Virus record (IMG/VR): IMGVR_UViG_3300040809_000188
Location: 8,031 to 72,030 of that record
Length of the DNA stretch: 64,000 bases
Direction: 5' to 3' (one strand)
DNA from: a virus
A program made the position numbers and the translations under genes. This document shows, piece after piece, positions 12,741 through 56,596 of the stretch (within the stretch, counting starts at the first letter, position 1; each line of letters begins with the position of its first letter). A model generated the notes under the pieces. It was not told the origin of the DNA, made no database searches, and worked only from the letters and a program-made list of their open reading frames with translations.

Positions 12741-13109
12741 ATGCTGATGATTGAGGTACATGGTGCTAGAAAGACTAAAGCGGCTCTCGCAAGGGATGCC
12801 GCTATCTTTGCTTTTGAATACTTGATGCCTAGAATGAGAAAGCAAGTAGACGTTGAGATTACCTTCACTAGAATGTATGATGTCTATGGTTATCAAGCAG
12901 AGGTCGGTGATCGTGAGTTTGAGATTGAGTTAGACAACAGATTAAAGGGTGATGATCTTTTGACTGCTATCTTTCATGAGGTAACTCACTGTGTTCAAGA
13001 CTTGAGAGGTCAGAAGGGTGGTTGGGAACTGCCTTATGAAGAGCGTCCTTTTGAGATTGAAGCGTATGCTATGCAAGAAGAAATCTTAGAAAAGTGGAAA
13101 AAAAGATAA
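12741..13109 (+). CDS. zincin-like metallopeptidase
   Basis: HEVTH plus PYEERPFEIEAY. Confidence 0.75.
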   Translation: MLMIEVHGARKTKAALARDAAIFAFEYLMPRMRKQVDVEITFTRMYDVYGYQAEVGDREFEIELDNRLKGDDLLTAIFHEVTHCVQDLRGQKGGWELPYEERPFEIEAYAMQEEILEKWKKR

Positions 13110-13117
13110 AAAAGACC

Positions 13118-13185
13118 TTGACATTTTCCGAAAATATGGTATAAATGTAAAGTAAGTTAGTTAAGTGATTCGCAATGAGAGAGGT
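13118..13185 (+). promoter_or_regulatory. early promoter with conserved leader (TGATTCG box, GAGAGAGGT RBS)
   Basis: TTGACA-16-TATAAA, then GTAAGTTAGTTAAG-TGATTCGC-AATGAGAGAGGT. Confidence 0.8.
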
Positions 13186-13191
13186 TTGATT

Positions 13192-13545
13192 ATGGCTTAT
13201 ATTTCACAAGAACAGAAGAAAGAACTTGCCCCTGCTATTAAAGCGGTTCTCAAGAAGTACAATATGAAGGGTAGCATCGGCATTGACAATCACAGTAGTC
13301 TGCGTGTTCGTGTTACTGAAGGCCCTTTGAAGTTTGATGATTATGAGCAAGTCAACACTTACCACATTGAAAAGTTCTACGGTAAAGACACTAAAGAAAC
13401 TGCTTTTCTGACTGAACTTGTCGCCGCTATGAAAGGCACTAAGTGGTACAACAACAGCGACTACATGACTGACTATTTTGATGTCGCTTATTGGATTGAT
13501 GTTCATGTTGGTCGGTGGGATAAAGCCTACCAGCAGACTGTTTAA
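13192..13545 (+). CDS. early hypothetical protein
   Basis: MAYISQE start after strong RBS. Confidence 0.75.
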   Translation: MAYISQEQKKELAPAIKAVLKKYNMKGSIGIDNHSSLRVRVTEGPLKFDDYEQVNTYHIEKFYGKDTKETAFLTELVAAMKGTKWYNNSDYMTDYFDVAYWIDVHVGRWDKAYQQTV

Positions 13546-13559
13546 GAAGAGAGGTTATT

Positions 13560-13757
13560 ATGAAAGAACTTTGGATTGAAGCGGAAAATCGGGTCTATTA
13601 TGCACTCGCTGATGCTATTGTCACTGGTTGTGAACATGTCACTGAGATGGTTGAAAAGGCCGAAATCCTTGAAACTGATATTGAGTTTCTTGGTGAGGAT
13701 ATGGTTCAAGATATCGCAACTGAAGTTTGGAACGAATATTGGACACAGTTTGAATAA
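13560..13757 (+). CDS. early hypothetical protein (acidic)
   Basis: RBS AGAGAGGT. Confidence 0.7.
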   Translation: MKELWIEAENRVYYALADAIVTGCEHVTEMVEKAEILETDIEFLGEDMVQDIATEVWNEYWTQFE

Positions 13758-13762
13758 AGCCC

Positions 13763-13817
13763 TTGACAAATTCTGTAGTTGTGGTAATATATCAGTATAG
13801 TGATTCGCAAGAGAGGT
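13763..13817 (+). promoter_or_regulatory. early promoter with TGATTCG leader
   Basis: TTGACA-16-TAATAT, GTATAG-TGATTCGC-AAGAGAGGT. Confidence 0.8.
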
Positions 13818-13823
13818 GAAAAT

Positions 13824-14012
13824 ATGTGGGTAGCAAAACCAAATTTGAATAACAACACAGGTCTCAAAGAGTTTGAGAATGTGAAAGAAGCAGTTGCATA
13901 CTTGGAAGAGTACACTGGTATTGAAATGGCTTATGAGCGCAATCGCAAGACAAAAAAGATCACTTACGATTGGGAACTGATTGGTAAACTTTGGGAGACT
14001 GCTAATGTCTAA
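13824..14012 (+). CDS. early hypothetical protein
   Basis: ATG after GAGAGGT RBS. Confidence 0.7.
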   Translation: MWVAKPNLNNNTGLKEFENVKEAVAYLEEYTGIEMAYERNRKTKKITYDWELIGKLWETANV

Positions 14013-14352
14013 GATGTGGAAACTTCATCAGATTGTTCTGACCAATGATATTGTTGACTTGATCAACCAAGAGGGTTTTCAAGCCCATGTAAAAGGTGTT
14101 GCTTACACTGAAGCATTGATGAAGGGTGATCCTAAGATTGGTTTGATGCACAAGTGTTATGATCATGTCGCCAACATTATTGCTGATGATTTAGAGCATT
14201 GCTTTGAGGTTGGTAACATCGGTCCTGAAGATCGGATTGAGAAGTTGGATAAGATGCACTCGATTTCTGTTGGTGACATTCTTGAGGATGACACGGGCAA
14301 GAAGTTTGTTTGTGCGAAGTCTGGTTGGGAAGAAGTGAAAGAGGTGGCATGA
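14005..14352 (+). CDS. early hypothetical protein
   Basis: SD GGAG; MHSISVGDI motif. Confidence 0.7.
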   Translation: MSKMWKLHQIVLTNDIVDLINQEGFQAHVKGVAYTEALMKGDPKIGLMHKCYDHVANIIADDLEHCFEVGNIGPEDRIEKLDKMHSISVGDILEDDTGKKFVCAKSGWEEVKEVA

Positions 14353-14570
14353 TGAGTAATCAACGAGGTTTGAAACGCAACAAAGCGGTTTTTAATGACG
14401 GTGGTTCTATGCTCCGACAGATCATCAACTTTGCGGAAGAGGCAGAAGAACTGCTAGAGAAGCAAGGTGAGGAAGACGCCGCTTTTTACTTTGGACAGTT
14501 GAAGGATTGGTTGCGTGATAATCCGGCTAAAGGTTTTTCTGTTCCAACTCATACTATTTTGGGTTTGTAG
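14349..14570 (+). CDS. early hypothetical protein
   Basis: SD GAGGT, ATGA overlap. Confidence 0.65.
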   Translation: MMSNQRGLKRNKAVFNDGGSMLRQIINFAEEAEELLEKQGEEDAAFYFGQLKDWLRDNPAKGFSVPTHTILGL

Positions 14571-14581
14571 TAAAAAAGGCC

Positions 14582-14640
14582 TTGACAAACTAGTCAACAT
14601 TTGCTATAAAGTAAGTATAGTGATTCGCAAAGAGAGAGGT
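14582..14640 (+). promoter_or_regulatory. early promoter with TGATTCG leader
   Basis: TTGACA-17-TATAAA, GTAAGTATAG-TGATTCGC-AAAGAGAGAGGT; TTGAC-N6-GTCAA palindrome over the -35 box. Confidence 0.82.
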
Positions 14641-14646
14641 GAAGAA

Positions 14647-14991
14647 ATGAACGAAGTAATGACCCAGAAAATCGAAAAGTTGTTTGACGCTATTACTAAA
14701 GATTACGAAGATTGGGCCCGCCGTGCAAACATTAAACGCCGAACCGCTCAAGATTTTCGTGACAGCCTTGGTGTGATCGTAGGTAATAAATACATCAAAG
14801 TTACAGAGAACGGTAATCAGATGCGTGTTTGGGGTTTTGTTGTCAACACCGAAACTGATAAGAAGTTCAAGTTTGGTGACATTCTCATGGCGGCTGGTTG
14901 GAAAGCGCCTGCTCGTAACACTGCCCGTGGCAATGTTATGACTGAAGAGTTCAGTGCGGTTCAGTGGACTGGACCTGCTTACTTGCGCTAG
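14647..14991 (+). CDS. early hypothetical phage protein
   Basis: GNKYIKV..VWGFV..GDILMAAGWKAPARN..RGN. Confidence 0.75.
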   Translation: MNEVMTQKIEKLFDAITKDYEDWARRANIKRRTAQDFRDSLGVIVGNKYIKVTENGNQMRVWGFVVNTETDKKFKFGDILMAAGWKAPARNTARGNVMTEEFSAVQWTGPAYLR

Positions 14992-15155
14992 TCGCAAGCG
15001 TGATACGAGGCGGTCGGTCACGAAAATAGAATCAAAAAGCCCTGCCTAGGAAGTGGGTTGCCGTCTAAGTTTCAGAGTTTGGTTTGCCCGGCTACCTCTC
15101 TCTCATTAACTTACAAGCCGGGCGGTGGGCAGTTTATAAAACGTAAGACCCACCA
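14982..15155 (+). ncRNA. candidate structured sRNA with an anti-early-leader loop
   Basis: GC-rich intergenic region with several hairpins; GCCCGGCT/AGCCGGGC stem (15086-15123) presents loop ACCTCTCTCTCATTAACTTACA, complementary to early leaders. Confidence 0.65.
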
Positions 15156-15172
15156 TTTCATAAGAGGTAAAG

Positions 15173-15577
15173 ATGAAAAAGATTGTATTTGGATTGCTTG
15201 GTGTATGCGCTTTTGCTACAACAGCATATGCAGAAACCGTCACCGATCATTATAAAACGGTTATCAATCGCACACCATATCAAGTTGAAGTATGCACAGA
15301 TAAGCAAGTTTCTGGTGATAAGACTGGTGACATGCTCAAAGGAGCAATCATTGGTGGTATCATAGGAAACAATATCAAAGGAGAAGAAAATGGCGGTGCT
15401 ATGGGCGCTATTCTCGGCGGCATGCTTGGTCATTCAAATAGCACTGCTACTGGCGGCACTGCAAGGCAATGCGAAGTAGTAACACGCTATAATGAAGAAG
15501 CGATTCAAGTTTATTCGCATTCTACAGTGACATTTTATGATGATGGTAAACAATATACAGTGAGGTTTCAGAAATGA
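15173..15577 (+). CDS. glycine-zipper envelope protein
   Basis: Signal peptide; GAIIGGIIGN..GAMGAILGGMLG. Confidence 0.8.
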   Translation: MKKIVFGLLGVCAFATTAYAETVTDHYKTVINRTPYQVEVCTDKQVSGDKTGDMLKGAIIGGIIGNNIKGEENGGAMGAILGGMLGHSNSTATGGTARQCEVVTRYNEEAIQVYSHSTVTFYDDGKQYTVRFQK

Positions 15578-15819
15578 GTTTTGATTGGCCAAGAATACAT
15601 AAATGGGAAGAACGCATTGAGTCAGATGTAACAGATTCAGTTTATGAATATGTTATGGAACACTATGGTGTCGATGAAATCGTAGAGTTGACAGAAGAAC
15701 AAATCAAAGAAGTTGAAAACTTCAGAGATGAACTAAATGAATATAGTCCAATGCAATGGGGCTTCTCTAACCTGATTAATCATTGGGAAAGTGAAACTTG
15801 GGAAGCAGAGAATGAATAG
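15574..15819 (+). CDS. hypothetical protein
   Basis: ATGA overlap, SD GAGGT. Confidence 0.65.
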   Translation: MSFDWPRIHKWEERIESDVTDSVYEYVMEHYGVDEIVELTEEQIKEVENFRDELNEYSPMQWGFSNLINHWESETWEAENE

Positions 15820-16036
15820 ACGATATAGAATCTTTGGTGCTAGATATGAGTTGTCTGAAAAACTGATGGAGAATGACGATCAGTCATGGCCAGAAGAGAT
15901 TACAGCGAAACCAAAAGTGTTTCATGTGGAAATCACTGAAGACAAAAAGAGAGTTGCTTTTCTAACTCGTAATACATATGATGAAGCGAGAGCGATTGCA
16001 GAGGATTTTTGTAGTTATGGCAAGACGACTGTTTAA
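15812..16036 (+). CDS. hypothetical protein
   Basis: Tiled ORF in operon. Confidence 0.55.
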   Translation: MNRRYRIFGARYELSEKLMENDDQSWPEEITAKPKVFHVEITEDKKRVAFLTRNTYDEARAIAEDFCSYGKTTV

Positions 16037-16277
16037 GAATCGACATGGTGACACACAGTCATTTGAGTGGACAGAAGATAGAAACATTCTCTGGCGTGGT
16101 TCTCGCAGTCATGAAAGGATTACTTGGGACCCTCATGCTGATATCATTACAATGGTTGATCCCGCTGGTGGCCCCTATCTCGCAAAAGGTGATGTCATTG
16201 ACTTTCCAGAAGAGTTTGCTGGATATACGATTAAACACTTTGAGCAACACGATGAGGGCTATATAATACATGTGTGA
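16017..16277 (+). CDS. hypothetical protein
   Basis: KNRHGD..MVDPAGGPYL. Confidence 0.6.
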   Translation: MARRLFKNRHGDTQSFEWTEDRNILWRGSRSHERITWDPHADIITMVDPAGGPYLAKGDVIDFPEEFAGYTIKHFEQHDEGYIIHV

Positions 16278-16283
16278 TAGTTT

Positions 16284-16366
16284 GCGCCTATGGTGAAATT
16301 GGTAGACACGCTAGATTTAGGTTCTAGTGCGAAAGCGTGGGAGTTCGAGTCTCTCTAGGCGCACCA
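16284..16366 (+). tRNA. tRNA-Leu(TAG)
   Basis: GCGCCTA/TAGGCGC acceptor stem, long variable arm, TTCGA loop, encoded CCA. Confidence 0.95.
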
Positions 16367-16372
16367 AATTAT

Positions 16373-16448
16373 TCCCTGTTAGTTCAGTTGGTAGAACGGT
16401 GGACTGTTAATCCATATGTCGTTGGTTCGAGTCCAGCACAGGGAGCCA
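16373..16448 (+). tRNA. tRNA-Asn(GTT)
   Basis: TCCCTGT/ACAGGGA, anticodon loop CTGTTAA, CCA. Confidence 0.95.
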
Positions 16449-16451
16449 TTT

Positions 16452-16527
16452 GCTGAAGTAGCACAGTTGGTAGTGCAGTTGATTTGTAATCATCAGGTCG
16501 GGAGTTCGAGCCTCTCCTTCAGCACCA
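16452..16527 (+). tRNA. tRNA-Thr(TGT)
   Basis: GCTGAAG/CTTCAGC, anticodon loop TTTGTAA, CCA. Confidence 0.93.
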
Positions 16528-16528
16528 T

Positions 16529-16602
16529 GCGGTTATGATGTAAGGGTAGCCTATCTCGTTGCCAACGAGAATGTGAGAGTTCGATTCTCTCTAACCGCTC
16601 CA
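16529..16602 (+). tRNA. tRNA-Gly(GCC)
   Basis: GCGGTTA/TAACCGC, anticodon loop TTGCCAA, U73-CCA; weak D-stem. Confidence 0.88.
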
Positions 16603-16653
16603 TAAAGTAGTGTCATTCCTACTTAATAATCGAATGACTGGTGCCACCTGGGC

Positions 16654-16682
16654 AAAAGGGTTGACTTTGTTCAGCCCTTTTT
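16654..16682 (+). terminator. rho-independent terminator after tRNA cluster
   Basis: AAAAGGGTTGA..TCAGCCCTTTTT. Confidence 0.8.
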
Positions 16683-16688
16683 CTATTT

Positions 16689-16696
16689 TATAAATA
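16689..16696 (+). promoter_or_regulatory. T4-type late promoter
   Basis: TATAAATA; also found at 18755, 23220, 50503, 52223, 56275 and 60619. Confidence 0.8.
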
Positions 16697-16724
16697 GTGA
16701 GTAAATAAAACATACGAGGGTATC

Positions 16725-17522
16725 ATGCTTACATTTACTGAGCATCAAAATCTACAAGAGACAATCGGGCAGGCTGGACTTGACTATGAAATAAAGGTTC
16801 ACTCTGCTATGAAAGCGGCGAACATTGCAGGTCTAAATGCTGGTGACAAGCCAGGCGCTGGGTTTTCTAATGTTGGTGCTGGAGATATTGAAGCATCCTA
16901 TAATGGTAAACCTTTCAACATCGAAATCAAAGCAGGCGCCAAGGATCAAATGGGTGGTGGTTCTTTTCGTTATGACATGGCTACTGGAACATTTACACCA
17001 GCAAAAGAGATGGACCCAGAAGACTTGGACTTGTTGTTAGCGGCGGCTAAAGAAAAGACTGACGATATTAACAACTACATCAAGGCCGCTAGAAAGATTG
17101 AACCAGTTCAGTTTCACAAAAACATTTCTGGTATCCCTCTAAAAATATCTGTTGATGGTCGTGCAGAACTAAAGAAAAGAGGACTGCTTGCCAAAATCAA
17201 CAAGAACATCAAATCATCAACCGCATTTATCATTAAACACTACAACAAAAAGGGTGTGTATTACATCAATGTGGGTGGTGCTGGACTGTTCTATATGGGT
17301 AAAAATCCATTGAAACTTGATGTGCCAGAACTAAAAGGTGAGATTCAGATTGAAATGAGACTTGGTTTTGGTGGTGGTAAACTATCATTCCCTACACAAC
17401 CAGAGCCTACATCCGCTCGTTCTGCTGGACTAAGACTTCAAGGAAGACTCTTGACAAGAGGTAAATCTCCGTATAGTCTAGACAATGTAGAAGATATTAA
17501 GAAACTGTTTGGTGTGAAATGA
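16725..17522 (+). CDS. late protein with PD-(D/E)XK-like motif and capsid-targeting-like N-terminus
   Basis: MLTFTEHQNLQE start; GDIEAS..NIEIK. Confidence 0.55.
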   Translation: MLTFTEHQNLQETIGQAGLDYEIKVHSAMKAANIAGLNAGDKPGAGFSNVGAGDIEASYNGKPFNIEIKAGAKDQMGGGSFRYDMATGTFTPAKEMDPEDLDLLLAAAKEKTDDINNYIKAARKIEPVQFHKNISGIPLKISVDGRAELKKRGLLAKINKNIKSSTAFIIKHYNKKGVYYINVGGAGLFYMGKNPLKLDVPELKGEIQIEMRLGFGGGKLSFPTQPEPTSARSAGLRLQGRLLTRGKSPYSLDNVEDIKKLFGVK

Positions 17523-47403: not shown

Positions 47404-47950
47404 TCGAAAACCTATTGACTTAAACACTCTTGTTGGTAAAGGAACCATTTTTGGTTGCAATGCTCTTTACCGTGAGTTCAACAAATACGACTATCTGGTC
47501 TCAATCGATAAATCTTTTCAAACTATCATTGAAGCCAATGATGAAGTGTTTGGTACAGATGATCGAATCATCTTTCCACCAGACAATGAGTGTTGGGAAG
47601 ATGCTGAGTACAGTCCGAATCGAAGACGCAGTAATGCTGGTATGAATGCAATGCTTGAAGCGATTCGCAGAGGCCATGATAAACTGTACTGCTTGGGTTT
47701 TGATTTTTTATTGAAAGACAATGAGTTATCTGAAGATAATCTGTTTAAGAATCAGGCAGGATATGGACCCGAAACTCATGCGAATCACCAAGATAATGTT
47801 CATCGAATCGCATATTTAGAGTGGTTTATGCGTAAACACCACAAAACAAAGTTTACTTTTGTTCTACCAGATAATGAACAATTTCAAACACTTACTGCCC
47901 CAAATGTGACAGGCATATTTATTTCAAAATTTATTGAAAAAAAGTGTTGA
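47369..47950 (+). CDS. Maf/MptE-like (DUF115-type) putative glycosyltransferase
   Basis: AFIIGNGVSR..GCNALYRE..D..NAG..LGFD. Confidence 0.55.
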   Translation: MKTAFIIGNGVSRKPIDLNTLVGKGTIFGCNALYREFNKYDYLVSIDKSFQTIIEANDEVFGTDDRIIFPPDNECWEDAEYSPNRRRSNAGMNAMLEAIRRGHDKLYCLGFDFLLKDNELSEDNLFKNQAGYGPETHANHQDNVHRIAYLEWFMRKHHKTKFTFVLPDNEQFQTLTAPNVTGIFISKFIEKKC

Positions 47951-48016
47951 CATATATCTCTCCAGTTGCTATAAAGTATATGTAAGTTAGTTAGTGATTC
48001 GCAAAGAGAGAGAGAC
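47947..48016 (+). promoter_or_regulatory. early promoter with TGATTCG leader
   Basis: TTGACA-17-TATAAA; TGTAAGTTAGTTAG-TGATTCGC-AAAGAGAGAGAGAC-ATG. Confidence 0.82.
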
Positions 48017-55936: not shown

Positions 55937-56255
55937 TTTTACAGTTACAGCGAATGCTAAACCAGAATGGCAAAGCAAGCCTGTTCAGTGTTCAGAAATA
56001 CAAGAAATCTATCAAGCATATGTTTATAAACACAAACTCAAGCCACTCTTTATTGGTGTAACAACAGCCGCAACTCACGATATGAAAAAGATTGCAGTTC
56101 CTATCATCTTCTATATGAATGATGTAGGACAGTGGTTGATGCTGGAAGTTGGCGATGACAAATGGACTTGTGTAATAGGTCTTGGTGATGGATTTGATTC
56201 TTCAATAACAGAAGAAGTTCTCAATGAAATACTTTTGGGTGCAAAAGGTACTTGA
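55899..56255 (+). CDS. secreted hypothetical protein
   Basis: Signal peptide; KPVQC..TCVIG.G. Confidence 0.65.
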   Translation: MKKLLIAMGVLLSFTVTANAKPEWQSKPVQCSEIQEIYQAYVYKHKLKPLFIGVTTAATHDMKKIAVPIIFYMNDVGQWLMLEVGDDKWTCVIGLGDGFDSSITEEVLNEILLGAKGT

Positions 56256-56282
56256 CAACAGAAGTCTTTTATAGTATAAATA
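56252..56282 (+). promoter_or_regulatory. dual sigma70/late promoter of tmRNA
   Basis: TTGACA-17-TATAAA, where the -10 box is also TATAAATA. Confidence 0.75.
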
Positions 56283-56287
56283 AAGAT

Positions 56288-56566
56288 GTTCGATGAAGCG
56301 ATTCGGACGCTGGACAGGACCCGGGGGCGGTACCCGGCGCCTCCACCATAAGCACTTGATGATGAGATTAAGGTAGTCAGGTGTTTTTCAAGTTCTTATG
56401 TGGGGGCGAAATAGGATCGACTGACAGTTAGTAGGAAAGTGGAGAACAGGTGTGGAAACAACCTTAATCGTAACAACACTTCAAACGCAAACGATAACTT
56501 TGCACCTGAGATGCGCCTAGCGGCATAATCTCTGGGCTGGCCACTTGCCTCGAAACAGAAAAGTGG
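56288..56566 (+). ncRNA. ssrA: circularly permuted two-piece tmRNA (alphaproteobacterial type)
   Basis: Acceptor piece ends CGCCTCC-A-CCA (56348); intervening hairpin; coding piece starts GGGGGCG (56402), giving G3:U70; tag 56487-56528 reads ANDNFAPEMRLAA*. Confidence 0.92.
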
Positions 56567-56596
56567 TAACAAATAAAAAAAAGAAGGAATAAACAA

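What the first reader, a model, noticed from the sequence alone, without database searches (positions are those of the whole stretch)
14982..15155. Candidate phage sRNA whose hairpin loop is antisense to the shared early-gene leader
Seen: an 8-bp GC stem (15086-15093/15116-15123) displays the loop ACCTCTCTCTCATTAACTTACA, whose reverse complement is TGTAAGTTAATGAGAGAGAGGT. This is the early leader with the TGATTCGC box removed. Compare GTAAGTTA..AATGAGAGAGGT (13152-13185), GTAAGT..AGAGAGAGGT (14611-14640), TGTAAGTTA..GAGAGAGAG (47981-48014) and the AGAGAGGT RBSs near 13548, 13810 and 44068. The element sits in a GC-rich multi-hairpin spacer (CTTGCG/CGCAAG, CGTGA/TCACG, AGCCC/GGGTT, GGTGGG/CCCACC, possible AGGCGGT/GCCGTCT pseudoknot) downstream of an early promoter. 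Established: alphaproteobacterial sRNAs such as AbcR and cuckoo use CU-rich anti-SD loops. Inference: a bipartite seed clamps both the 5' end and the unusual GA-repeat RBS of early mRNAs, giving negative feedback that shuts off the early regulon while sparing AGGAG-type and leaderless mRNAs. With the GcrA-type boxes this would be an on/off circuit that I do not recognise as described.
Basis: partly seen in the sequence, partly recalled or inferred. Interest (0 to 1): 0.92.

Follow-up and report, generated by a model that had tools for sequence, protein, structure and literature searches.

The report
Conserved anti-ribosome-site hairpin in marine phage
A small RNA hairpin behind an early gene of an uncultured marine T4-like phage is conserved in related phages and carries a loop that mirrors the phage's own early-gene leader, so it may dampen early protein synthesis, but nobody has yet shown that it is made or active.

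Summary
An 8-bp stem (15086-15093/15116-15123) displays a 22-nt loop. Its three best predicted partners, out of about 12,800 windows of the + strand, are the three early leaders.

The hairpin belongs to a family. It sits downstream of a DUF7717-like early gene in many marine T4-like phage contigs. Across 18 distinct variants, 96% of stem cells pair and 6 of 7 pairs show double changes. Internal G.U pairs favour the mRNA-sense strand.

The conserved part of the loop is a pyrimidine tract, CCUCUCUCUC, which is antisense to the GA-rich ribosome-binding sites. The second half, antisense to GTAAGT, is lineage-specific. Phages with the same leaders carry loops without it, so the "bipartite clamp" is not a conserved feature.

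No lineage shows a promoter for the hairpin itself, and I obtained no RNA evidence.

The loop looks like an inverted copy of the phage's PeSL-type promoter-leader cassette. My best reading (about 0.4) is an icaR-like 3'-UTR or intercistronic anti-SD element, acting first on its own mRNA leader and possibly on sister leaders. A structural or protein-binding hairpin, or a recombination relic, remain serious rivals.

Still unexplained: the 106 nt before the hairpin are 98% identical between phages whose flanking genes are 64-72% identical.

The scan noted this same stretch before, in this genome only.

The parts
14582..14610 (+). sigma-70-type early promoter of the DUF7717-like gene (TTGACA 14582-14587, 17-nt spacer, TGn-TATAAA 14605-14610)
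   Evidence: part of a repeated PeSL-like promoter-leader cassette
14611..14646 (+). own leader: GTAAGT (14611-16), TAGTGA, TGATTCGC box (14621-28), GA-rich SD AAAGAGAGAGGT (14629-40). It is the best predicted partner of the loop.
   Evidence: -25.2 kcal/mol, rank 1; 21 of 22 loop nt paired to it in the full-length fold
14647..14991 (+). early gene P0002, 114 aa, weak DUF7717 match; the family anchor of the hairpin
   Evidence: (PF24835, E 4e-05, below cut-off)
14980..15085 (+). 106-nt ultra-conserved, GC-rich spacer with two small hairpins; function unknown
   Evidence: (98.1% and 97.2% identity against 64% in the gene); no Rfam hit
15086..15123 (+). the conserved stem-loop (arms 15086-15093 / 15116-15123, loop 15094-15115)
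15095..15104 (+). CCTCTCTCTC pyrimidine tract: the anti-SD and the conserved core of the loop
   Evidence: TCTCTC invariant in 18 of 18; pyrimidine run of 8-16 nt in all 18; members found without using the motif
15105..15115 (+). lineage-specific 3' half of the loop (ATTAACTTACA), antisense to TAGTGA/GTAAGT(TA) of the leaders
   Evidence: absent in L259, L264, G002 and L262
15124..15154 (+). second hairpin GGTGGG...CCCACC with a sense GTAAGA and a TATAAA (15135-15140) in its loop; possibly a weak terminator or a decayed promoter-leader
   Evidence: shared with L258 and L262; followed by ATCTTTTT in L262
15173..15577 (+). downstream gene P0001, 134 aa, signal peptide, glycine-zipper (Rick_17kDa_Anti-like)
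13118..13191 (+). sister early promoter and leader (GTAAGTTAGTTAAG-TGATTCGC-AATGAGAGAGGT), third-best predicted partner
   Evidence: -22.7
47947..48016 (+). sister early promoter and leader (TGTAAGTTAGTTAG-TGATTCGC-AAAGAGAGAGAG), second-best predicted partner
   Evidence: -24.4

Best explanation
The element at 15086-15123 is a conserved RNA stem-loop read on the mRNA-sense strand. It lies in the untranslated stretch behind an early DUF7717-like gene and is transcribed from that gene's sigma-70-type promoter, 504 nt upstream.

By descent, its loop is an inverted copy of the phage's own PeSL-type early leader, running from the region after the -10 box to the SD, with UUCGCAAA of the TGATTCGC box missing. 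What selection has kept across lineages is the stem and a single-stranded CCUCUCUCUC tract.

Proposed mechanism (inferred, not shown). As with the 3'-UTR of S. aureus icaR mRNA, the CU tract pairs with the GAGAGAGG(U) Shine-Dalgarno of early leaders. It would act first on the leader of its own mRNA, in cis or between molecules, and possibly on the two sister leaders. This would lower ribosome loading and perhaps create a nuclease substrate. In this phage and its closest relatives the pairing can extend over the whole loop. Elsewhere only the anti-SD can pair.
For: Structure.
- In 18 distinct variants, 96% of stem cells pair and 6 of 7 pairs changed on both sides. None of 500 shuffles reached this, and slid controls gave 7-41%.
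- Internal non-Watson-Crick positions are G.U on the + strand in 8 cases and A.C in 1. That is about 3 independent events against 1.

Distribution.
- A covariance model finds one copy per fragment, always on the + strand and downstream of the DUF7717-like gene.
- It matched 8 of 65 sources and 25 of 80 metagenome loci at E <= 0.001.

Loop.
- TCTCTC is invariant in 18 of 18 variants, and all 18 have a pyrimidine run of 8-16 nt.
- This includes 4 variants (L337, L364, L387, L403) found through a downstream motif rather than through the CU tract.

Complementarity.
- The three leaders are the top 3 of about 12,800 windows.
- Folding the full mRNA pairs 21 of 22 loop nt with the gene's own leader, in both the MFE and the ensemble.
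- The same is predicted for L258 (20/22), G001 (17/23), L264 (16/22) and L259 (10/22).
- The one loop difference between the window and L258 (U to C at the position matching 15106) turns a G.U into a G-C with the unchanged leader.
- Lineages whose leader SD reads AGAGAAAGG have loops reading CCUUUCUCU or CCUUUUCUC.

No own promoter. I saw no TTGACA-type promoter between the upstream ORF and the hairpin in any lineage inspected.

Precedent. The icaR 3'-UTR UCCCCUG motif pairs with its own SD, blocks ribosome loading and gives an RNase III substrate (PMC3868564, passages read).
Against: - There is no evidence that the RNA exists or has defined ends. No metatranscriptome contig covered the hairpin, which is uninformative either way.
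- In 11 of 16 lineages the full-length fold keeps the hairpin closed, with no leader pairing.
- Cognate loop-leader energies barely beat non-cognate ones, and the cognate leader ranks first for 1 of 17 loops. Because the SDs hardly vary, the anti-SD hypothesis is almost untested by co-variation.
- A CU-only loop also hits GA-rich coding sites. The best G002 site is internal to a gene, at -30.4 kcal/mol.
- Complementarity to the leader follows automatically from an inverted-copy origin.
- Quasi-palindrome repair at the DNA level could mimic compensatory stem changes.
- Neither the spacer nor the full mRNA folds better than shuffles (z = -0.84; z = -1.15).
- The transcription start is unknown. 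GTAAGT may not be part of the gene's own transcript.
Confidence: 0.4

Rival explanations
1. The element is a free-standing, trans-acting phage sRNA. Its bipartite seed clamps the 5' end and the GA-repeat RBS of all early mRNAs and shuts off the early regulon.
For: In this window the loop pairs in two or three blocks with exactly the three GTAAGT..TGATTCGC..GAGAGAGG leaders. The 3'-half match is unlikely by chance. A second hairpin follows that could end or stabilise a short RNA.
Against: I found no strong (exact TTGACA) sigma-70 promoter between the upstream ORF and the hairpin in the lineages scanned. The anti-GTAAGT half is missing in L259, L264, G002 and L262, although L259 and L264 have the same leaders. 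There is no clear U-tract terminator in the window. No RNA data were obtained. The window's loop binds G001 leaders as well as G001's own loop does.
Confidence: 0.12
2. The hairpin is a structural or protein-binding RNA element of the early transcript. Candidates are a 3'-end or processing signal, an attenuator, a stabiliser, or a site for a pyrimidine-binding factor such as ribosomal protein S1, Rho or a phage translational repressor. Its likeness to the leader would reflect origin only.
For: The stem is conserved with compensatory changes, and the tract stays pyrimidine-only while C and U interchange. In distant lineages the hairpin lies in a roughly 150-nt untranslated module that ends at a terminator-promoter (PeSL) hairpin. 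There the 3' half of the loop pairs 8-10 bp with a segment about 23 nt downstream, not with leaders. In 11 of 16 lineages the fold keeps the hairpin closed.
Against: Loops of 20-31 nt are unusual for terminators or stabilisers. The scan found no U-tract after the window's hairpin. No candidate protein was identified. C-to-U changes are also what pairing to GA via G.U would tolerate.
Confidence: 0.25
3. The hairpin is a non-functional relic. It would be an inverted fragment of a promoter-leader (PeSL) cassette left by recombination in a hyperplastic early region and kept palindromic by DNA-level quasi-palindrome repair.
For: The loop reads as an inverted leader. In distant lineages the arms contain TTGAC and the TGATTCG/CGAATCA box of the local promoters, and sense leader-like pieces lie just downstream. 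PeSL cassettes are described as recombination substrates in T4-type phages (PMC4122927, passages read; PMC2839356, search listing only). L259 is a mosaic with a breakpoint in this spacer.
Against: The element persists in lineages whose DUF7717-like proteins are only 40-55% identical. The tract contains no purine in 18 of 18 variants. The position and strand are fixed, with one copy per fragment. Internal wobble pairs are strand-asymmetric.
Confidence: 0.13
4. The element acts at the DNA level, as a cruciform or a protein-binding inverted repeat. It could, for example, be tied to the GANTC/TGATTCG boxes or to recombination, rather than functioning as RNA.
For: In L298, L318, L292, L193 and L203 the outer stem is TGATTCG.../...CGAATCA, which gives two inverted GANTC sites. 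All-Watson-Crick stems in the window clade are compatible with DNA.
Against: The window-clade stems carry no GANTC. G.U-type positions outnumber A.C positions 8 to 1 on the sense strand. The conserved part is the loop, which would be unpaired only in a cruciform.
Confidence: 0.05

Closest known systems
icaR mRNA 3'-UTR anti-SD (Staphylococcus aureus; PMC3868564, passages read). A related case is the hbs 5'/3'-UTR interaction in B. subtilis (PMC5737220, search listing only).
   Same: A pyrimidine-rich motif in the untranslated 3' part of an mRNA is complementary to the SD in the 5' leader of the same mRNA. It could act in cis or in trans. Sister targets with the same SD are conceivable.
   Different: The host here is a virulent T4-like phage. 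The motif is CCUCUCUCUC, displayed in a hairpin loop with a covarying stem. The element may be intercistronic rather than terminal. Nothing has been tested experimentally. In this lineage the complementarity covers the whole loop.
PeSL (promoter-early stem-loop) cassettes of T4-type phages (PMC4122927, passages read; PMC2839356, search listing only)
   Same: The shared early leader of this finding is a cassette of this kind: a stem-loop at or before the -35, a sigma-70 promoter, an SD and a start codon, repeated through the early region. The hairpin loop appears to derive from one.
   Different: The element studied is an inverted, promoter-less fragment held in a hairpin loop. The passages I read do not describe such an orientation (0 occurrences of 'inverted' in PMC4122927).
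Anti-SD sRNAs of Alphaproteobacteria (AbcR1: PMC4152367, search listing only; cuckoo RNAs: recalled, not checked)
   Same: A single-stranded C/U-rich motif in a hairpin loop is aimed at ribosome-binding sites.
   Different: There is no Rfam match to any family, no promoter or terminator of its own, and a different motif. It is encoded by a phage and aimed at the phage's own leaders.
Intramolecular CU-rich anti-SD hairpins in the H. pylori aapA3 toxin mRNA (PMC6733600, search listing only), and the hairpins that sequester the SD in early transcripts of T4 e, soc and 49 (recalled, not checked)
   Same: An anti-SD sequence within the same transcript limits translation.
   Different: Those act locally, next to the SD. 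Here the anti-SD lies about 450 nt downstream of its best partner. Pairing with the SD of the next gene (P0001) is only 6 bp.

Membership tests
Rfam sRNA families (AbcR, cuckoo, any other) | Covariance-model match at or near the gathering score | tested here: not met
   (whole window at gathering thresholds) found only tmRNA and tRNAs. One search (14900-15250, E up to 10) gave two snoRNA chance hits at E 2.2 and 9.6.
Free-standing trans-acting sRNA gene | Own promoter directly upstream | tested here: not met
   No sigma-70-like promoter was found between the P0002 stop codon and the hairpin. In other lineages the hairpin starts 2-110 nt after an ORF stop with no TTGACA promoter. Non-sigma-70 promoters were not covered.
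Free-standing trans-acting sRNA gene | Intrinsic terminator defining a short RNA | tested here: inconclusive
   The scan calls no terminator at 15086-15172. A second hairpin follows, with AUUUCAU in the window and AUCUUUUU in L262. Distant lineages end at a G5..C5-U5 hairpin about 110 nt further on.
Free-standing trans-acting sRNA gene | Detected as a discrete transcript | not testable with these tools
   Only assembled metatranscriptome contigs were available, and none covers 15086-15123.
icaR-type 3'-UTR anti-SD element | Motif downstream of the stop codon is complementary to the SD of the same mRNA | tested here: met
   Loop 15094-15104 pairs with the SD at 14631-14640. Rank 1 of about 12,800 windows. 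Paired in the MFE and centroid of the full mRNA.
icaR-type 3'-UTR anti-SD element | The pairing represses translation or triggers cleavage | not testable with these tools
   Needs reporter assays, toeprinting and RNase assays.
icaR-type 3'-UTR anti-SD element | Complementarity is maintained in relatives | tested here: inconclusive
   All 18 variants keep a CU tract, and all own leaders keep a GA-rich SD. However, the cognate leader ranks first for 1 of 17 loops, and leader pairing is predicted in 5 of 16 full-length folds.
PeSL cassette (T4-type phages) | Stem-loop, then sigma-70 early promoter, SD and start codon, in sense orientation before a gene | tested here: not met
   The leaders at 13118, 14582 and 47947 fit this definition. 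The hairpin itself holds only an inverted leader fragment. The TATAAA at 15135-15140 has no good -35 and is not conserved in L258 or L262.
Intrinsic (rho-independent) terminator | GC-rich stem, short loop, U-tract | tested here: not met
   The loop is 22 nt and is followed by GGUGGGC with no U-tract. The scan did not call it.

The most novel reading that the evidence does not exclude
A virulent T4-like phage made an antisense regulator out of its own promoter-leader cassette. An inverted PeSL leader, fixed in a hairpin loop behind an early gene, yields an RNA that base-pairs with the 5' leaders of the early regulon and turns their translation down. This would be an RNA counterpart of the protein-based early shut-off of T4 (RegA/RegB; recalled, not checked). 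It would also be a bacterial-virus parallel to regulators born by inverted duplication of their targets.
Probability: 0.2. Interest if true: 0.8.

Novelty: new variant of a known kind. Interest (0 to 1): 0.55.

Why it matters
Few regulatory RNAs are known from virulent phages. A 2016 paper (PMC4933390, passage read) names only T4 band C and D RNAs, whose function is unknown.

Here is a compact, well-covarying RNA motif with an obvious candidate target, the phage's own early ribosome-binding sites. It is found in many uncultured marine T4-like phages. If it works as proposed, three things would follow:
- Early-gene dosage in these phages is set partly by an mRNA 3'-5' interaction.
- The recombinogenic PeSL cassettes can be a source of new regulators.
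- The system would be simple to test, because loop and SD compensatory mutants are easy to design.

If it does not work this way, the family is still a clean marker of a hyperplastic early region. The neighbouring 106-nt island of near-identity still needs an explanation.

Tried and rejected
- Public phage records. blastn of 14500-15600 found no match.
- RNA evidence. 16 RNA runs hold small shares of 13000-17000. I laid four of them. Depth was dominated by the tRNA cluster at 16284-16602, and a few low-depth contigs lie on the early genes, for example 14811-15041 in X2. None covers the hairpin, so this gives no information on expression, ends or strand.
- 14-mer scan for CTACCTCTCTCTCA. It returned at least 118 stretches, mostly chance. 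Of the 15 hairpin-flanked hits among the 170 loci then held, 12 were the window and the two lineages already known. L117, L119 and L122 look unrelated; L119 looks like an AT-stem terminator.
- Downstream-motif scan. It returned at least 116 stretches. Only 14 had TTGACA nearby, and 9 of those were true relatives.
- Hairpin as a promoter. TTGACA at the arm/loop junction of L298, or TTGCCC..TAACTT in the window, was considered. Spacing and the -10 are poor and not conserved, so I rejected it.
- Sequestration of the P0001 SD, T4 e/soc style, with TATAAA at 15135-15140 as an internal promoter. The pairing is only 6 bp, and the TATAAA is absent in L258 and L262. Rejected as a general model.
- Loop-to-downstream pseudoknot. 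It is convincing in the distant group (8-10 bp at a fixed distance; cognate best in L337, L364 and L292). In the window it is only 5 bp and ranks 8 of 18.
- Minus-strand reading. I saw no nearby start codon after the SD-like loop on the minus strand, by eye from the reverse complement. All long ORFs in the window are on the + strand.
- Host origin of the spacer. There were 0 exact matches in 185,579 species genomes for two spacer words. In viral contigs only the G002 lineage matched.
- Association with P0001. Of 48 loci with a P0001 relative, only 5 (two lineages) have the hairpin upstream.
- Not tested: whether AGGAG-type or leaderless mRNAs are spared, and any link to GcrA/CcrM.
- Paper supplements were not consulted.
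Full report
**What the window is.** The 64-kb window is part of a 72-kb IMG/VR virus record estimated to be 40% complete. It has 39% G+C, and all long ORFs lie on the + strand. It encodes a family-B DNA polymerase, a DnaB-like helicase and a ribonucleotide reductase. It also carries six tRNAs and an alphaproteobacterial-type permuted tmRNA. I read it as an uncultured marine T4-like myovirus, probably of an alphaproteobacterium. The host assignment is inferred from the tmRNA type only. The public phage collection holds nothing similar at the DNA level.

**The observation.** The stem and loop are exactly as described, and the hairpin is in both the MFE and the centroid fold. The "shared early leader" is a repeated cassette: TTGACA, 16-17 nt, TATAAA, then (GTAAGT..)TGATTCGC..GAGAGAGG(T)..ATG. 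It occurs at 13118, 13763, 14582, 44027 and 47947, with more copies in the 8 kb before the window. Several copies have a terminator-like hairpin around the -35 box. This matches the PeSL cassettes described for T4-type phages (PMC4122927, passages read).

The complementarity is not chance. Sliding the loop along the whole + strand, the three GTAAGT-type leaders come first at -25.2, -24.4 and -22.7 kcal/mol, and the next site scores -19.1. A 9-nt complement of the loop's 3' half in a leader 5' part is reached by 0.075% of random 10-mers. Ungapped mismatch searches did not show this.

**Relatives.** The two flanking proteins served as anchors. P0001 is a signal-peptide, glycine-zipper protein. 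It gave 48 loci, of which 5 (two lineages, G001 and G002) have the same gene order and a hairpin. P0002 is weakly DUF7717-like. Searched as a 4-sequence alignment, it gave 152 relatives in viral contigs and 157 in metagenome contigs, and the best 80 of each were fetched.

Scanning these loci for CCTCTCT inside a hairpin loop, together with the alignment, gave 18 distinct variants. Four of them (L337, L364, L387, L403) came from a scan with a downstream motif that does not involve the loop.

A covariance model built from the 18 variants matched as follows:
- 8 of 65 sources: the window, G001, G002 and 5 of 58 other viral loci.
- 25 of 80 metagenome loci at E <= 0.001.

Every match is on the + strand, 0-750 nt downstream of the DUF7717-like gene. 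There is one copy per fragment, including the 72-, 35- and 48-kb records. Most relatives of the gene therefore lack the hairpin.

**Is it a structure, and on which strand?** Over the seven shared stem pairs, 96% of cells pair and 6 of 7 pairs have double changes (38 cells). None of 500 shuffles reached the observed values, and sliding the partner by 1-3 columns drops pairing to 7-41%. One row, L254, is misaligned in that alignment and contributes some of the unpaired cells; I kept it in.

With a strand-neutral stem definition, the internal non-Watson-Crick positions are G.U on the + strand 8 times, A.C once, and other once. The 8 trace to about 3 independent events, so this is modest support for an RNA read in the mRNA sense.

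In the upstream spacer, 4 of the 5 variable paired positions keep pairing through G.U on the + strand. That is not significant on its own.

**What is conserved in the loop.** TCTCTC is invariant in 18 of 18 variants. All 18 have an uninterrupted pyrimidine run of 8-16 nt at the 5' side of the loop. The run drifts between C and U (CCUCUCUCUC, CCUUUUCUCUC, UCUUUCUCUCUCUUUC).

The 3' half comes in several types:
- ..ACUUACA(A) in the window, L257/L258 and G001.
- CUCUCU(CU)AAAU or CUCUAAA in G002, L259/L263/L264 and L262.
- (A)AUCAUCAUA(W) in the L215/L298/L318/L337/L364/L387 group.
- A-rich in L292, L193 and L203.

L259 carries a P0002 that is 96% identical to the window's, with an identical leader. 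L264 has a GTAAGTTAGTTAG-TGATTCGC leader. Both have the CUCUCUAAAU loop. The anti-GTAAGT half is therefore not required in phages with these leaders.

Across 17 loop/own-leader pairs, the cognate energy averages -16.5 against -15.3 kcal/mol for non-cognate pairs (permutation p = 0.010, not corrected for relatedness). The cognate leader is the best partner for only 1 of 17 loops. The window's loop binds G001 leaders as well as G001's own loop does, and the best site for the G002 loop is inside a gene.

On the positive side:
- The single loop difference between the window and L258 improves pairing with the unchanged UAGUGA of the leader.
- G001's loop matches its own leader segment TAAGTGATT.
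- The three lineages whose leader SD reads AGAGAAAGG have CCUUUC-type loops. These may reflect a single evolutionary event.

Co-variation is therefore weak, and for the SD itself it is almost untestable because the SD hardly varies.

**Cis pairing.** Folding the whole predicted mRNA (14611-15160) pairs the loop with the gene's own leader in three blocks: 10 bp at the SD, 6 bp at UAGUGA and 6 bp at GUAAGU. UUCGCAAA is looped out and the local stem opens. This holds in both the MFE and the centroid.

The same calculation on 16 lineages predicts leader-loop pairing in 5: the window (21/22 nt), L258 (20/22), G001 (17/23), L264 (16/22) and L259 (10/22). It predicts a closed hairpin in the other 11, which have 9-14-bp stems.

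Two caveats apply:
- The full-length fold is not more stable than shuffles: z = -1.15, with 18 of 100 shuffles as good.
- The usual spacing from the -10 puts the start of the gene's own transcript near 14617, which would remove the GUAAGU block. In the 13118 and 47947 promoters, GTAAGT sits at about +1 to +6. Both points are inferred.

**Origin.** On the opposite strand the loop reads as a leader from just after the -10 to the SD. In the distant lineages the arms are TGATTCG-(G)TTGAC / GTCAA-CGAATCA. These are the -35 and the GANTC-containing spacer box of the local promoters, plus their inverted copy. Sense leader-like pieces follow within 20-45 nt.

That explains the complementarity but not its persistence. 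The element keeps its position, strand and purine-free tract in phages whose DUF7717-like proteins are 40-55% identical.

**Mechanism.** I commit, at about 0.4, to an icaR-like anti-SD element in the 3'-UTR or intercistronic RNA of the early transcript (PMC3868564, passages read). The shown steps are structure, strand preference, conservation and complementarity. The inferred steps are transcription through the element, pairing in vivo and an effect on translation or decay.

The free-standing bipartite sRNA gets 0.12, a structural or protein-binding hairpin 0.25, a relic 0.13 and a DNA-level element 0.05.

**Unexplained.** The 106 nt from the last four codons of P0002 to the base of the hairpin are 98.1% (104/106) identical to G002 and 97.2% identical to L264. 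In the G002 comparison, the gene before is 64% identical, the hairpin 70%, the next spacer 41% and P0001 71.5%. G001 lacks about 70 nt of this island, and L262 lacks all of it. It has no Rfam match. It has no copy in other viral contexts or in bacterial genomes. Either extreme constraint or recent recombination could explain it; L259 shows a breakpoint here.

**Novelty and score.** Anti-SD regulators and PeSL cassettes are both known. A covarying hairpin family that holds an inverted early leader in a virulent phage is not described in the papers I searched or read in part (PMC4122927, PMC4933390, PMC3868564). These searches cover open-access text only. I rate it a new variant of a known kind, with interest 0.55. 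The motif is real and testable, but its function is unproven and the most striking claim, the bipartite clamp, is lineage-specific.

Noticed in passing
window 14980-15085: A 106-nt GC-rich spacer is 97-98% identical between phages whose flanking genes are 64-72% identical. It is absent or shortened in G001 and L262. It has no Rfam hit and no copy in bacterial genomes or other viral contexts.
   Followed up: partly
L298:1760-1808, L318:997-1042, L292:1175-1225, L193:3693-3743, L203:3640-3700: In distant relatives the outer stem of the hairpin is TGATTCG.../...CGAATCA, giving two inverted GANTC sites. Further TGATTCGC copies lie just downstream. The promoters of the DUF7717-like gene in these phages carry CGAATCATG between the -35 and -10 boxes.
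   Followed up: partly
L298:1809-1900 and the same region in L215, L209, L318, L337, L364, L387, L403: The hairpin is followed by a conserved untranslated module of about 110 nt. It includes UAUGAUGA (complementary to the 3' half of the loop; also readable as a 4-codon ATG-ATG mini-ORF), a CAGUC/GACUG hairpin and CUCAAUGAU/AUCAUUGAG. It ends at a G5-TTGACA-C5-T5 terminator-promoter hairpin.
   Followed up: partly
L259 versus window and L264: L259 is a mosaic. Its P0002 and leader are window-like (96% aa identity), but its hairpin and downstream sequence are identical to L264, whose P0002 is 52% identical. A recombination breakpoint therefore lies in or next to the conserved spacer.
   Followed up: partly
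window 56229-56570; L025-L032, L038, L039 (upstream of P0001 relatives): The window has a permuted alphaproteobacterial-type tmRNA (tag ANDNFAPEMRLAA). In other phages the P0001 relative sits directly after what looks by eye like a tmRNA-like sequence. That reading was not run through any tool.
   Followed up: no
L250, L253, L255, L274, L277, L280 (downstream of DUF7717-like genes): Instead of the CU-loop hairpin, these loci have long GC-rich, apparently structured non-coding stretches after the gene. They were not identified.
   Followed up: no
window 16284-16602: The tRNA cluster (Leu, Asn, Thr, Gly) attracts very deep metatranscriptome contigs with many mismatches and loose ends. These are most likely host or other organisms' tRNAs rather than phage expression.
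   Followed up: no
window 15135-15154: The loop and 3' arm of the second hairpin hold TATAAA followed by ACGTAAGA. This resembles the -10 and start region of the early promoters but lacks a -35. The TATAAA is not conserved in L258 or L262.
   Followed up: partly
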